Of a stretch of 64,000 nucleotides of DNA, positions 38,401 through 41,400 are shown piece by piece. This DNA comes from Phycisphaerae bacterium (GTDB taxonomy: Bacteria > Planctomycetota > Phycisphaerae > UBA1845 > Fen-1342). The stretch is from positions 1 through 64,000 of the forward strand of contig JASFQK010000011.1 of assembly GCA_050115495.1 (NCBI GenBank). Direction: 5' to 3'. Within the stretch, counting starts at the first letter, position 1; every line of letters begins with the position of its first letter. Made by a program: the position numbers.

Positions 38401-41400
38401 CGTACCTGATTCAGCTGCGAGCCGCGGCACGCGATCGGCAACCGTGGGCCAAGCGGGCGGCGTTCCGCGGGTGGCTGTGGGCGATGTCTTCGGAGTGGAC
38501 GTATGCCTGGGGGCAGCGGCTGATGGCGACGTTTCTGCCGGATGATGGCGAGGACTGGGCGGTGCGCGGGTTCGGACCGCTGGGCGAGTGGACGTCGAAC
38601 CGTGATCTGCGAAGGCCGCCGGGCAAGCCCTTCCGTAAGCTGTGGAATGAGGGTTTGTGCGATGAACGCTGAACATGCCGGTCAATCCGGGCGGACGGAT
38701 GCGGCGCTGACCGCGTTCATCGCCGGTCTGCGCTGCAAGACCACGGCTGTGGCCGAGCCGGTGCCGTTGCCGGAGATCGGTCAGACGGGGCGGCAGGTGG
38801 CGGCGGATGACGATCTCGAAACACGCTTTGCGAAGGCGGCGATGGCGGCGGGGATGACCGTGCACCGCGTGTCGCCGGCGACGTGGGTCGATGAGCTGAT
38901 GCGGTTGGCGGGAGAACTGAAGGCGGGGCACGTCCTCGTGGCAGCTCAGGATGGATCGGCGTTGGCCTCGGCGCAGGCGGCAGTGGTCGGCGAGCGTCTC
39001 TCGGCCGCGGGTGTCACGGTGCATACCGACCTGAGCGACGACACGTTATTCAGCGTCGATGTGGCGGTGACGGGCGTTTCCGCCGGCATCGCCGAGACGG
39101 GCACGATCGTGGCGACGTCCGGGCCGGGATTGGCCCGTGCGTCGTCGCTGATCCCGCCGCTGCACGTGGCGGTGGTGCTCGCCGAGCAGATTGTGCCCGA
39201 TCTTCACGATTACTTCGCTCTGTTGGACGCCGGAGCGCTCCCCGCCGGCGTGCACCTGATCAGCGGGCCGAGCAAGACGGCGGACATCGAAGGCATCCTC
39301 GTCACCGGCGTCCACGGGCCCGCGCAGGTGCATATCCTCCTGGTCTCCCGCGGGGCCTAGCATGGGTGGGGCGACCGTCTCGCCGGTCGTCTTCCTCGAC
39401 GAACCATCGCCGTCCGCTCCGACGCCGCGAGATCAACGCCACGTGCGCCGACACGCTGGGCTCGGATGGACGACTGCTCACTGCCCAAGCCACGCACCGC
39501 GACAGACCGCACGCACGTCAGCGGACTAGTCCCGTAGGGACGGCTGATTGTAGCCCAGCAGGAACTGCTGGGATCCGGAGGGGCGTCTTCCCCTCTCAGT
39601 CCCGTAGGGACGACTGAACGCTTCGCCACGCGCACCATCGTCCGGCCGTCGCGGGCGGATCATCCGAACACGTAACGCTTGTCATACGCGATCCCGTGTC
39701 GCTCGAGGAACGCGACGTATTCCTCGTCGAACCCGCGCGTGGCGTGGTGTTCGGTCTGGCGGGCGATGTAGCGCGTCGTTTCCTCGACCTGCGACACGCC
39801 GATCGTGAAGGCTGCGTAACCCTCCTGCCAGGCGAAATCGCGCATCTCCGCGAATGTATCGTGGAGCCATTTCGACGAGCCGGCCTTGAGGAGTTGCACC
39901 GCCTTCGCCACCGGCATCGTTGCCGGCAGGGCCAATAGCGCGTGCATGTGGTCGCCCGTACCGCCGACCGCGAGCGTGACAAAGTCGTTCGTGCGGGCGG
40001 CGCCGCCGACGTACGCCCACAGGCGGTCCTGGACGGCGGACGGGATGAGGTTTTTCCGGCGGCGAGTGCTCCAGACGCAGTGGAAGAGGCAATGAGAATA
40101 CGAGTGCGGCATGGCGTATCTGCTTTCAGTCGTCCCTACGGGACTGGGGCGCGGGGCCGCCCGCGGGTCCCAGCAGTTCCTGCTGGGCTACAATCAGCCG
40201 TCCCTACGGGACTAGTCTCTCGGGGTATACGTGTGGTTGATCCTGGTACGCAGCTTCGGTTACGGCTAGGTGTTTCTGCGGGACTGCTCCGTCGGCACGC
40301 GCGGCGTTGATCCCGGCAATCCACTTGGGCGACGTTCAACCGTTCCTCACGGACCATCAGGCCTTTCTGAGACTGTTAACTGCGTACGCCAGTCCGATTC
40401 GTCCTGCGAAACCTCCTTAGAACAACGACAACTGCCGTTCGGTGGGCGTGGGGGGCGGGGCGGGGGAGTGGAACTCCTCTCGCCAGGATTGGCCGCAGTC
40501 GAGGCCGTGGCGGGTGGCGGCGGTTTCGAAGAGGCGTTGGACGCTCAGCCAATAGGCGCCTTCGGCACGCATGCGCCAGCCGAAGCGTGGATCGTTCCAG
40601 ACGCCGCCGCGGAGATCGAGGATGCGCTGCTGGACGCGGTCCGCCGCCTGCGGGAACCCGGCGCGCAGGCGCGCCAGGAATACTTCTCGCACCGAGCCCG
40701 GCAGACGCACCGCACCAAAGCTCGCCGATGTCGCCCCGCACGCCGCCGCCCGGGCCAGCAGCGTGGGGATATCGCGGTCGTTCAACCCCGGGATCACCGG
40801 CGAAATCAGCACGCCCACCGGCAAACCCGCCTCGGCCACGCGGCGCATCGCCGCGAACTGCCCGTTCGGCGGGACCACGCGCGGGGCGAGCAGCCGGGCC
40901 ACTTTCGCGTCGGCGAACGGAATGCTGAACAGCACGTACGCCGCCGCCACGCGGTGCAGCTCACGCAGAATGTCCAGATCGCGGATCACGAGCGGCGATT
41001 TCGTGACGATGCACACCGGGTTGGCTCGCTGCCGGCAGACTTCGAGGCAGGCCCGTGTAATGCCGTACTTCGCCTCCAGCGGCTGGTAGGCGTCGGTCAC
41101 GCCGGAGAACTGGATCTTCTCGCGTTTCCAGCGCGGCTTGGCGAGAGCCTGGGCGAGAAGCTCGGCGGCATTGACCTTGACCGTGATGAGCGTCTCGAAG
41201 TCGGTACCGGCACCGAGGTCGAGGTATTCGTGCGTTCGCCGGGCATAGCAGAACGCGCAGGCATGCTCGCAGCCGCGGTAGGGGTTGACGCTCCAGCGGA
41301 AGGGGATGTCCGGGCTCTCGTTGTGCGACAGGATCGACCGCGCCTGCTCCTCGCGCACAGAGAGCCGTGCCGGCGGCGGCGGCTCGCACCACTCGACCTG

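What a model noticed while it worked through the whole genome (the two positions that open the first line are those of the whole stretch)
39528..40213. Rfam 'Acido-Lenti-1 sRNA' copies are REP/REPIN elements of a RAYT transposase
The 36 matches to the orphan Rfam family Acido-Lenti-1 (RF01687, function unknown) in this genome are not sRNA genes but repetitive extragenic palindromes (REPs): read on the opposite strand each is GTAG + hairpin, nearly all are intergenic, 16 of them stand as inverted doublets (REPINs), and one inverted pair brackets the single-copy Y1 (IS200-like) REP-associated tyrosine transposase gene g01537 at C11:39660-40112.
Evidence so far: rna.tsv: 36 RF01687 hits; 34 lie between genes, 2 overlap only the doubtful ORF g01125; 8 inverted (-,+) pairs whose starts lie 143-187 nt apart, on C5, C8, C9, C15, C21, C25 (two) and C31. 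C11 39528-39572(-) and 40169-40213(+) bracket the Y1_Tnp gene g01537 (Pfam E 5e-25). On the opposite strand each copy reads GTAG+CCCAGCA..TGCTGGG, the classical REP layout; 24 exact-pattern copies, 24/24 intergenic. Relatives: of 19 loci from other Planctomycetota genomes centred on homologues of g01537, 12 carry RF01687 hits at the gathering score within about 600 nt of the gene, mostly '-' upstream and '+' downstream as here. Among the 150 other Planctomycetota genomes searched both for the RAYT and for [...]
(Added by a program. Inside this text positions count along the whole contig: contig position 1 is position 1 of the stretch shown here. "Call 12" and the like, gene names such as g00115 and contig names such as C1 are that model's own, and its searches are not shown. 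The text may have been shortened before it was handed on; [...] marks where a part breaks off. The agent that wrote the report below was given it as the finding of a first reader that could run no searches.)

Follow-up and report, generated by a model that had tools for sequence, protein, structure and literature searches.

The report
Orphan "sRNA" is a transposase-linked DNA repeat
The sequences that Rfam lists as the small RNA "Acido-Lenti-1" behave here, and in three bacterial phyla, as hairpin-rich DNA repeats forming the inverted ends of a small IS200-like transposase gene and its many gene-less copies, which would explain an abundant motif of unknown function.

Summary
Two RF01687 matches (44.7 bits, cut-off 37) lie in inverted orientation around a 150-aa Y1/HUH transposase ORF (window 39660-40112, minus strand).

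The genome holds 36 matches over the cut-off. My family profiles find 106 copies of the underlying repeat, and 96 of the 106 are intergenic.

Each Rfam match is the outer half of a ~92-nt multi-hairpin "half-element". Seven ~205-nt inverted doublets have the same layout as the gene's flanks, minus the gene.

- The gene is not single-copy. There are four paralogues, each flanked by its own co-varying repeat family.
- The protein is not a canonical RAYT. It fits the IS200-proximal "subclass 1.2" of Quentin et al. 2018, which that paper lists without a REP partner.

Evidence from other genomes:
- Of 80 homologue loci from several phyla, 53 carry RF01687 hits, at stereotyped positions about 41-65 nt from the gene ends.
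- In 450 sampled genomes of three phyla, 64 of 69 gene-positive genomes have the motif, against 28 of 381 gene-negative ones.

I conclude it is a REP/REPIN-like system. No biochemistry or RNA data exist. No paper in the library searched makes the link. This scan reached the same reading before on other DNA.

The parts
39528..39619 (+). Half-element downstream of the gene, read on the + strand. It runs: A, then hp1 39529-39541 (5-bp stem, GTA loop), linker 39542-39549, GTAG 39550-39553, hp2 39554-39572 (8-bp stem), spacer 39573-39597 which here folds on its own, then A and hp1' 39599-39611, then GACTGAAC to 39619.
   Evidence: Sequence. RF01687 hit 39528-39572(-), 44.7 bits. The DNA fold shows four hairpins, z -2.75. 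The same layout is seen in at least 30 of 34 family A copies.
39660..40112 (-). Y1/HUH transposase gene, 150 aa. HUH motif DHMH at residues 54-57, WQ at 95-96, catalytic-Tyr motif YIARQTEHH at 115-123, and a conserved ~30-aa C-terminal tail.
   Evidence: ORF. Pfam Y1_Tnp 2.1e-24. NCBIfam IS200 60.8 bits against cut-off 55, REP_Tyr_transpos 22 against 80. Best solved relative is IS608 TnpA, E 5.9e-06, with HUH and Tyr aligned. Paralogue alignment.
40125..40213 (-). Half-element upstream of the gene, the inverted copy of the left one. On the + strand it reads TTCAGTC, hp1' 40132-40144, spacer 40146-40168, hp2 40169-40187, CTAC 40188-40191, linker 40192-40199, hp1 40200-40212, T 40213. The inner end lies 12 nt from the start codon (ATG on the minus strand, 40110-40112).
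   Evidence: Sequence. RF01687 hit 40169-40213(+), 44.7 bits. DNA fold z -3.2 to -3.6.
39528..40213 (.). The whole cassette (686 nt): gene plus two ~90-nt inverted multi-hairpin ends.
   Evidence: The gene-less doublets elsewhere in the genome have the same ends and inner hairpins. Congeners hold a 70-73% identical stretch covering the gene and its right flank (window 39659-40216), but not beside orthologues of the neighbouring genes found there.

Best explanation
The two RF01687 matches are the outer parts of the ~90-nt inverted ends of a small transposase cassette. The other matches in the genome are gene-less copies of those ends, present as single half-elements and as ~205-nt inverted doublets. 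In other words they are REP/REPIN-type DNA repeats, not sRNA genes.

The enzyme is a 150-aa single-domain Y1/HUH endonuclease. It belongs to the IS200-proximal 'subclass 1.2' rather than the canonical RAYT clade.

Inferred mechanism, by analogy with IS608 TnpA and E. coli TnpA-REP (not shown here): when the DNA is single-stranded, the hairpins extrude. A dimer of the enzyme binds them and reads the DTAG tag next to hp2. It cuts nearby through a 5'-phosphotyrosine link and rejoins the strands. Half-elements or doublets would thus be copied or moved in trans.

Each paralogue recognises its own hairpin sequences. Stems therefore co-vary between families, and this is the covariation that made the motif look like a structured RNA.

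The gene cassette itself seems still able to move or duplicate, which is more IS-like than classical RAYTs.
For: Shown by computation.

(a) Inverted RF01687 hits bracket the Y1 gene.

(b) All four paralogues in this genome are flanked by the same layout built from different, mutually compensating hairpin sequences. The cognate families have 34 copies (A, C11 gene), 47 (E, C26/C52 genes) and 13 (C14 type). A fourth, mixed group (BCD, three sub-families) has 12 copies and no cognate gene in the assembly.

(c) 96 of 106 copies are intergenic against an 18.7% intergenic fraction.

(d) Seven family A doublets have the architecture of the two gene flanks joined without the gene. One of them folds as a single long hairpin, -78.7 kcal/mol, z -11.4.

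(e) Of 80 loci centred on homologues (Acidobacteriota, Planctomycetota, Verrucomicrobiota and others), 53 have RF01687 hits at E<=0.01 and 41 at the gathering score. A '-' hit lies within 200 nt upstream in 45, a '+' hit within 200 nt downstream in 38, and both in 33. Gaps to the gene cluster at 41-60 nt upstream and 42-65 nt downstream.

(f) Flanking inverted repeats of >=30 bits occur in 64 of 78 loci, against 1 of 78 in a displaced control. This includes most loci with no RF01687 hit.

(g) Co-occurrence, given as both / gene only / motif only / neither:
- Planctomycetota 24/1/14/111
- Acidobacteriota 28/2/10/110
- Verrucomicrobiota 12/2/4/132
- pooled 64/5/28/353

(h) Copy numbers: one to a few genes against tens to at least 149 motif matches per genome.

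(i) Two doublets are missing from the corresponding intergenic DNA of same-genus genomes.

(j) hp2 stems are 943 of 960 Watson-Crick pairs. The few wobbles favour the strand opposite to Rfam's, 9 against 2.

(k) No promoter-like or terminator-like site lies in 39300-40450.

(l) The C26 and C52 genes differ at 13 of 450 nt, 11 of them at third codon positions, so the gene is under purifying selection.
Against: - No binding, cleavage or transposition assay exists for this enzyme subclass. No RNA data were found for this organism, so transcription and an RNA-level role of some copies are not excluded.
- 27 of 80 homologue loci have no RF01687 hit.
- 28 of 381 gene-negative genomes carry the motif and 5 of 69 gene-positive genomes lack it. 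My gene threshold (E<=1e-20) and incomplete assemblies may account for part of this.
- Genomes within a phylum are related, so the 2x2 P values overstate independence.
- The protein fails the NCBIfam RAYT model.
- Empty-site comparisons rest on genomes only ~77-85% identical in the flanking genes. Exact junctions and a target site could not be read, and deletion in the relatives is as possible as insertion here.
- The spacer between hp2 and hp1' is constant in length but only 42% identical between copies. A simple recent copy-and-paste burst does not predict that.
Confidence: 0.8

Rival explanations
1. The copies are genuine small-RNA genes or RNA-level elements, as Rfam files them. On this reading their association with the transposase is secondary, for example an antisense or UTR RNA that controls transposase expression and has been duplicated around the genome.
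For: The two-hairpin structure is supported by compensatory changes between families. The family passes Rfam's gathering score. Weinberg et al. 2010 rated it 'probably RNA' on covariation. The inner hairpin hp1' overlaps a GGAGG just upstream of the start codon in many Acidobacteriota loci, so an mRNA-level role for that hairpin is plausible. No RNA data were available to exclude transcription.
Against: There are tens to more than 100 copies per genome against one to a few genes. Copies occur in both orientations and as inverted pairs. No promoter-like or terminator-like sites lie around the window copies. Stems are 98% Watson-Crick, and the rare wobbles lie on the other strand. The Rfam model covers only half of a longer conserved DNA unit. 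The Rfam-strand 'RNAs' on the two sides of the gene would both point away from it.
Confidence: 0.07
2. The hairpin modules are pre-existing host repeats with some other role, and the Y1 gene belongs to an insertion sequence that merely targets such repeats. Some ISs are known to insert into REPs (recalled from general knowledge; the abstract of PMC8450116 in the listing mentions ISPpu9 inserted in REPs).
For: 28 of 381 gene-negative genomes still carry the motif. Group BCD in this genome has no cognate gene. The cassette sits at non-syntenic places in congeners.
Against: The gene lies at a fixed short distance from both inverted modules across phyla. Each paralogue has its own matching hairpin family on both sides. 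The gene-less doublets keep the inner hairpins that abut the gene in the cassette. An IS that targeted repeats would bring its own, different ends between the gene and a split repeat.
Confidence: 0.05
3. A plain selfish IS200-like insertion sequence with long inverted ends and its MITE derivatives, with no long-term, vertically inherited RAYT/REPIN relationship. The molecular mechanism is the same as in the best explanation but the evolutionary status differs.
For: A 708-bp cassette is duplicated at 94% identity in different surroundings. Some genomes have up to 7-10 profile matches, partial and IS200-like ones included. The cassette is not syntenic between congeners. The protein passes the IS200 equivalog model.
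Against: Paralogues within a genome are mostly old, at 40-44% identity, not near-identical copies as in active ISs. Gene-less copies far outnumber genes. Hairpins stay conserved while spacers have diverged, which suggests long residence under constraint.
Confidence: 0.3

Closest known systems
REP/REPIN elements with RAYT (TnpA-REP) transposases: E. coli, Pseudomonas, Stenotrophomonas (Nunvar 2010 and Ton-Hoang 2012 recalled; Bertels & Rainey 2011 seen only as abstract/listing)
   Same: A Y1/HUH gene flanked by inverted hairpin repeats that carry a 5' xTAG tag. Many gene-less intergenic copies. Inverted doublets that can fold into one long hairpin. Several gene/repeat pairs that co-vary within one genome.
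   Different: The protein is outside the canonical RAYT clade (NF047646 22 bits against 80; only HUH aligns to E. coli RayT). The unit is a ~92-nt multi-hairpin module with the tag between two hairpins, not one tagged hairpin. The tag is DTAG across taxa. There are about a hundred copies rather than many hundreds. The gene cassette itself appears duplicated or mobile.
TnpA-Y1 subclass 1.2 of Quentin et al. 2018 (PMC6006769; sections 17 and 18 and Table 1 read)
   Same: Length ~148 aa. Motifs DH[IV]H, WQ and a Y motif of the form Y---Q--HH. A ~30-aa C-terminal tail. Low copy number with ~36% identity between copies in a genome.
   Different: Their Table 1 gives 'REP: no' and a distribution mostly in Cyanobacteria and Bacteroidetes. 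Here the genes have cognate inverted repeats and are common in Acidobacteriota, Planctomycetota and Verrucomicrobiota. I matched published motifs only and did not score their HMM.
TIRtrons / TIRYT transposases of Di Nocera et al. 2013 (PMC3733652; passages read)
   Same: RAYT-like genes flanked by long terminal inverted repeats, some 'double palindromic', with moderately abundant TIR families arranged as dimers. A sharply defined group lies in Acidobacteria and includes Koribacter versatilis, a species that also contributes to the Rfam seed.
   Different: That paper makes no link to Rfam RF01687. I could not compare sequences because the figures and the .doc alignment are not held, so identity with the family studied here is likely but untested.
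IS200/IS605 insertion sequences (IS608, ISDra2)
   Same: Closest solved structures. Passes the NCBIfam IS200 equivalog. HUH and Tyr conserved. Hairpin ends.
   Different: The ends here are long inverted repeats rather than distinct left and right subterminal hairpins on one strand. No TnpB-sized ORF adjoins the gene in the window. Paralogues are diverged rather than near-identical multi-copy.
Rfam RF01687 Acido-Lenti-1 RNA (Weinberg et al. 2010, PMC2864571)
   Same: The window copies match the whole 46-position model over the gathering score.
   Different: Rfam types it as 'Gene; sRNA'. The evidence here points to a DNA repeat read on the opposite strand, of which the model covers only the outer half.

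Membership tests
Rfam RF01687 (Acido-Lenti-1) | Covariance-model score at or above the gathering score (37 bits) | tested here: met
   44.7 bits for both window copies. 36 copies in the genome are over the cut-off.
Rfam RF01687 (Acido-Lenti-1) | Expressed as a small RNA | not testable with these tools
   No RNA run is listed for this DNA. No promoter-like or terminator-like sites were found.
REP / REPIN repeats | Short palindromic hairpin with a 5' GT(A/G)G-type tag | tested here: met
   GTAG followed by an 8-bp stem in family A. Across 120 distinct hits the tag is ATAG 38, GTAG 34, TTAG 31, others 17, so it is looser than the classical tag.
REP / REPIN repeats | Many dispersed, mostly extragenic copies | tested here: met
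   106 copies, 96 of them intergenic by crude gene calls.
REP / REPIN repeats | Inverted doublets able to form a long hairpin | tested here: met
   Seven family A doublets and three in group BCD. Fold -78.7 kcal/mol, z -11.4.
REP / REPIN repeats | Copies flank a Y1 transposase gene in inverted orientation | tested here: met
   The window cassette. All four paralogues. 33 of 80 homologue loci have hits on both sides. Inverted repeats in 64 of 78 loci.
Canonical RAYT (TnpA-REP; NCBIfam NF047646; Quentin class 2) | Scores over the curated RAYT model cut-off | tested here: not met
   22 bits against a cut-off of 80.
Canonical RAYT (TnpA-REP; NCBIfam NF047646; Quentin class 2) | Class 2 Tyr motif ending in NP (YI..NP in Table 1 of PMC6006769) | tested here: not met
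   The motif here is YIARQTEHH.
Canonical RAYT (TnpA-REP; NCBIfam NF047646; Quentin class 2) | One gene copy per cognate repeat family | tested here: inconclusive
   One gene each for family A and the C14 type, but two near-identical genes (C26, C52) for family E.
Canonical RAYT (TnpA-REP; NCBIfam NF047646; Quentin class 2) | Cleaves and rejoins its REP as single-stranded DNA | not testable with these tools
   This needs biochemistry.
TnpA-Y1 subclass 1.2 (Quentin et al. 2018) | Y---Q--HH Tyr motif, WQ motif, DH[IV]H | tested here: met
   All four paralogues have Y..Q..HH and WQ. Three have DHVH and the window gene has DHMH (against Table 1).
TnpA-Y1 subclass 1.2 (Quentin et al. 2018) | About 148 aa with a conserved ~30-aa C-terminal domain; low copy number, ~36% identity between copies | tested here: met
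   150 aa. F128, E131, L136, H139, G140, I141 and D144 are invariant among the paralogues. Identity between paralogue types is 40-44%. Their HMM itself was not available.
IS200/IS605 insertion sequence (subclass 1.1) | IS200 equivalog model | tested here: met
   60.8 bits against a cut-off of 55.
IS200/IS605 insertion sequence (subclass 1.1) | Many near-identical whole-element copies; distinct left and right ends rather than inverted repeats | tested here: not met
   Three diverged types and one duplicate pair. The ends are inverted repeats.
TIRtron / TIRYT (Di Nocera et al. 2013) | RAYT-like gene flanked by long TIRs that form a moderately abundant repeat family | tested here: met
   ~90-nt inverted ends and 106 copies. 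Sequence identity with their Acidobacteria group was not testable because the figure and the .doc file are not held.

The most novel reading that the evidence does not exclude
Acido-Lenti-1 modules together with subclass 1.2 Y1 genes form a separate lineage of REP/RAYT-like systems spanning several phyla (Acidobacteriota, Planctomycetota, Verrucomicrobiota and more). It is distinct from the canonical RAYT clades. Its recognition unit is a multi-hairpin ~90-nt module kept by selection while its spacer drifts, and its gene cassette still moves. On this reading essentially every RF01687 'sRNA' annotation in genomes and metagenomes is a DNA repeat, and subclass 1.2 gains the REP partner that the published survey found missing.
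Probability: 0.6. Interest if true: 0.6.

Novelty: new variant of a known kind. Interest (0 to 1): 0.5.

Why it matters
RF01687 is widely annotated. [quoted passage not shown] Another preprint speculates that copies regulate protease genes in Tannerella. Reading it as a transposase-linked DNA repeat would correct those annotations.

It would also explain the covariation that led to the RNA call. And it would give the Y1 subclass 1.2, published with "REP: no", a testable substrate.

Finally, it adds a REP-like system with a different enzyme lineage and a more complex recognition module. That is useful for understanding how HUH enzymes read hairpin DNA.

The principle itself, REP plus cognate tyrosine transposase, is well known. 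Part of this family was probably glimpsed as "TIRtrons" in 2013.

Tried and rejected
- **Chance matches.** Rejected: 0 of 14 control genomes hit, and the pattern controls gave 58 matches against 18 and 10.
- **Sequencing runs.** Only three DNA wetland-metagenome contig sets hold the stretch, and no RNA holder is listed. When laid, contigs simply break at the repeats. The three 'joints' have 20-21-nt sides with other letters between, so they are most likely other copies. I take no evidence from them on excision or expression.
- **Exact empty sites.** Same-genus genomes are only ~77-85% identical in the flanking genes. The alignments show the doublets missing but not the junctions.
- **Empty site for the gene cassette.** Synteny with the neighbouring genes is not kept in congeners.
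- **A conserved hairpin in the spacer.** Only a weak tendency: mean -2.4 against -1.65 kcal/mol.
- **Weinberg et al. supplements.** The files with the discussion and the flanking genes (S1.DOC, S3.PDF) could not be read. I recall, from no call, that the motif was said to lie sometimes near group II introns.
- **Earlier notes for this genome.** None.
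Full report
**1. The observation**

cmscan of the window finds RF01687 (Acido-Lenti-1) at 39528-39572 on the minus strand and at 40169-40213 on the plus strand. Each hit scores 44.7 bits against a gathering score of 37.

Between the two hits lies one long ORF, 39660-40112 on the minus strand, 150 aa. It matches Pfam Y1_Tnp at E 2.1e-24.

The sequence shows that the two flanks are exact inverted copies over about 48 nt and remain related further inwards.

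In the whole assembly (5.97 Mb, 85 contigs) the family gives 54 matches at E<=1e-3, of which 36 are over the cut-off. It gives none in 14 control genomes.

**2. Anatomy**

Read on the strand opposite to the Rfam model, every copy has this order:
- a 5-bp hairpin with a triloop (hp1)
- an 8-nt linker
- the tag GTAG
- an 8-bp hairpin (hp2)

The Rfam model stops there, but the conserved unit goes on:
- a spacer of 23-27 nt, constant in length but only 42% identical between copies
- a second copy of hp1 (hp1')
- the sequence ACTGAA

In the window this half-element is 39528-39619 on one side and, inverted, 40125-40213 on the other. As single-stranded DNA each folds into separate hairpins (z -2.75 to -3.6).

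At least 30 of the 34 copies of this family (family A) carry the full half-element, single copies included.

Seven inverted doublets of about 205 nt were found: C15:33633-33836, C25:91954-92160, C26:87328-87532, C31:67745-67951, C5:186136-186337, C9:121379-121580 and C9:122823-123026. They have the layout of the two gene flanks joined by about 20 nt instead of the gene. One of them folds as a single long hairpin of -78.7 kcal/mol, z -11.4.

**3. The gene is not single-copy, and each copy has its own repeats**

tblastn finds four Y1 genes: C11 (the window gene), C14:130209-130649, C26:38049-38498 and C52:25874-26320. The next best hit has E 0.42. Identity to the window protein is 44%, 41% and 40%.

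All four genes are flanked by the same layout, but the hairpin sequences differ and compensate each other. For example, hp1 reads GTCCC...GGGAC for C11, CGCCC...GGGCG for C26 and C52, and GCCCGC...GCGGGC for C14.

Family profiles (nhmmer, E<=1e-3) count the following copies, 106 non-overlapping in total:

| Family | Cognate gene | Copies |
|---|---|---|
| A | C11 | 34 |
| E | C26 / C52 | 47 |
| C14 type | C14 | 13 |
| Group BCD (three sub-families pooled) | none in the assembly | 12 |

Family E scores only about 28-31 bits with Rfam, so Rfam undercounts the system.

By a crude codon-usage gene finder of my own (3880 genes, 81.3% coding), 96 of the 106 copies lie in intergenic DNA. Intergenic DNA is 18.7% of the genome, which gives a binomial P of 6e-58. 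The ten copies that overlap gene calls sit mostly at the ends of ORFs, which my finder extends to the longest start, or in weak ORFs.

**4. What the protein is**

HUH (DHMH) and the catalytic tyrosine align with IS608 TnpA, the best solved relative (E 5.9e-06).

NCBIfam places the protein over the IS200 equivalog cut-off (60.8 against 55 bits). It falls far below the RAYT model (22 against 80 bits). BLASTP against E. coli K-12 RayT aligns only the HUH motif (E 0.049).

The motifs and size agree with 'subclass 1.2' in Table 1 and section 18 of Quentin et al. 2018 (PMC6006769):
- Tyr motif Y---Q--HH (YIARQTEHH), WQ, and DH[IVM]H
- length of 150 aa
- a conserved ~30-aa C-terminal tail
- low copy number with about 40% identity between copies

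That paper lists this subclass with 'REP: no' and mostly in Cyanobacteria and Bacteroidetes.

So the element works like a REP/RAYT pair, but the enzyme is not a member of the canonical RAYT clade.

**5. Relatives**

The best 80 were kept as loci with 1 kb on each side. From the record titles I assign 50 loci to Acidobacteriota, 15 to Planctomycetota, 6 to Verrucomicrobiota and 9 to other or unclear groups.

I scanned all 80 loci with Rfam at E<=0.01. From the tally I dropped the single non-RF01687 row, a mir-3160 match below its cut-off. The results are:

| Feature | Loci out of 80 (E<=0.01) | At gathering score |
|---|---|---|
| Any RF01687 hit | 53 | 41 |
| '-' hit within 200 nt upstream | 45 | 31 |
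| '+' hit within 200 nt downstream | 38 | 30 |
| Both | 33 | 23 |

- Gaps between hit and gene match cluster at 41-60 nt upstream and 42-65 nt downstream.
- By label, hits occur in 36 of 50 Acidobacteriota loci, 11 of 15 Planctomycetota and 2 of 6 Verrucomicrobiota.
- 27 loci have no hit.

Independently of Rfam, the 220 nt upstream and the 220 nt downstream share an inverted repeat of >=30 bits in 64 of 78 loci with enough flank. In a displaced control the figure is 1 of 78. Most RF01687-negative loci are included, for example a 114-nt inverted repeat in L065.

Printed upstream regions of 24 loci show the same order: hp1, linker, DTAGCC-hp2, spacer, hp1', start codon.

**6. Co-occurrence and copy number**

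I sampled 150 genomes in each of three phyla and searched each sample for the motif (E<=1e-3) and for the gene (profile of the four paralogues, E<=1e-20).

| Phylum | Both | Gene only | Motif only | Neither |
|---|---|---|---|---|
| Planctomycetota | 24 | 1 | 14 | 111 |
| Acidobacteriota | 28 | 2 | 10 | 110 |
| Verrucomicrobiota | 12 | 2 | 4 | 132 |
| Pooled | 64 | 5 | 28 | 353 |

One of the 'motif only' Acidobacteriota genomes is the unpublished G204.

The pooled odds ratio is 161. The genomes are related and many are incomplete, so the P values overstate independence. My strict gene threshold may also move some genomes into 'motif only'.

In five genomes examined whole, motif matches far outnumber the genes:

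| Genome | Motif matches | Full-length genes |
|---|---|---|
| G001 | 46 | 2 |
| G002 | 79 | 1 |
| G003 | 149 of the 150 candidates scored | 1 |
| G004 | 6 | 1 |
| G005 | 37 | 7 |

**7. Signs of mobility**

The genes flanking the C15 doublet are syntenic in same-genus genomes G309, G310 and G311, and also in G306, at about 77% identity. There the intergenic DNA is 123-196 nt and lacks the doublet; here it is 472 nt.

For the C31 doublet the downstream gene has orthologues at about 85% identity in four congeners, and the aligned upstream DNA lacks the doublet.

The junctions could not be read at this divergence. Deletion in the relatives therefore remains possible.

The C26 and C52 genes sit in a shared 708-bp segment, 94% identical, inside different surroundings. 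The coding part differs at 13 of 450 nt, 11 of them at third codon positions, with two amino-acid changes. A whole cassette has therefore been duplicated and then kept under purifying selection.

Relatives of the window gene and its right flank occur in G308 and twice in G310 at 70-73% identity. They do not lie beside the orthologues of the window's neighbouring genes.

**8. DNA or RNA?**

In 120 distinct sequences at gathering-score level (98 hits from the 80 loci plus 36 from this genome), the hp2 stem is Watson-Crick in 943 of 960 pairs. There are 9 G:T pairs on the REP strand, 2 pairs that would be G:U on Rfam's strand, and 6 others. This near-perfect complementarity and the slight bias fit a DNA palindrome read on the other strand, but the numbers are small.

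No promoter-like or terminator-like sites lie in 39300-40450. No RNA run is available. Transcription is therefore not excluded.

The inner hairpin hp1' carries GGAGG a few bases before the start codon in many Acidobacteriota loci. It might also act on translation (inference).

**9. Literature**

- 'Acido-Lenti-1' occurs in 6 papers and 'RF01687' in 3.
- I read the passages in Weinberg et al. 2010, where a table rates it 'probably RNA' on covariation, with 89 representatives.
[quoted passage not shown] A Tannerella preprint also mentions it. Neither these passages nor those of Weinberg et al. link it to REPs or transposases. The other hits I saw only as listings.
- A further search combining REP, Rfam, sRNA and RAYT showed nothing relevant in its listing.
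- Weinberg's supplementary discussion and flanking-gene file could not be read.
- Di Nocera et al. 2013 (passages) describe GTAG REPs with cognate transposases in Planctomycetes. They also describe 'TIRtrons' in Acidobacteria with 'double palindromic' TIRs, including Koribacter versatilis, which also contributes to the Rfam seed. This is probably the same family seen earlier under another name. I could not test that.
- This scan has reached the same reading at least eight times on other genomes. Those are unchecked AI notes that agree with my tests, not independent evidence.

**10. Verdict**

The finding is real, and the reading is right in substance. It is a REP/REPIN-like system whose enzyme belongs to an IS200-proximal Y1 subclass rather than to the canonical RAYTs. 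Its unit is larger than the Rfam model, and its gene is present in several cognate versions.

- Shown: anatomy, dispersal, cognate pairing, conserved position across phyla, co-occurrence, and presence/absence differences.
- Inferred: hairpin recognition on single-stranded DNA, cleavage near the tag, and mobilisation in trans.

Noticed in passing
G000 C8:827-1719, C25:882-1795, C21:28768-28956: Dense mixed arrays of group BCD and family E repeat copies near contig ends. The C8, C21 and C25 doublets are nearly identical to each other. No Y1 gene cognate to group BCD was found in the 92%-complete assembly.
   Followed up: partly
window 39573-39597 and 40146-40168; family A copies genome-wide: The spacer between hp2 and hp1' has a constant length (23-27 nt) and is C-rich, but is only 42% identical between copies while the neighbouring hairpins stay conserved. 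It folds only weakly better than shuffles. This is unexpected for simple copy-and-paste repeats.
   Followed up: partly
5' side of hp1 in family A and E copies (e.g. window 39524-39528): A weak pyrimidine motif lies just outside the element: TCYY before family A and CYTCYT before family E. It may be a target or cleavage site, by analogy with IS200/IS605 target tetranucleotides. Untested.
   Followed up: partly
L029, L031, L044, L055 and other Acidobacteriota loci, about 5-20 nt before the start codon: The inner hairpin hp1' (AGTCCCGGAGGGAC) is nearly the same across phyla even where the outer hp1 differs. It contains GGAGG close to the start codon, so it might occlude the ribosome-binding site.
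   Followed up: no
G003 (genome of L005): 149 of 150 scored candidates are RF01687 matches, out of about 2537 first-look candidates, with one full-length subclass 1.2 gene. The same genome has nine weaker, multi-copy IS200-like matches. The true repeat count is probably several hundred.
   Followed up: no
L023, L025, L083: Homologues at 42-49% identity sit on contigs of MAGs labelled Klebsiella pneumoniae, Akkermansia muciniphila and Devosia. The labels look odd for this gene family and may reflect binning errors. None of the three has an RF01687 hit.
   Followed up: no
window 1251-2833(-), 52646-52717(+), 54347-54420(+): A complete bacterial 16S rRNA gene and two tRNA genes lie in the window.
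   Followed up: no
window 36945-39360 and 40417-41454: The neighbours of the cassette are two long ORFs on the plus strand (575 and 272 aa) and a 345-aa ORF on the minus strand. Orthologues of these neighbours in congeners lie on contigs other than those holding the cassette relatives. I did not run family searches on the neighbours.
   Followed up: partly
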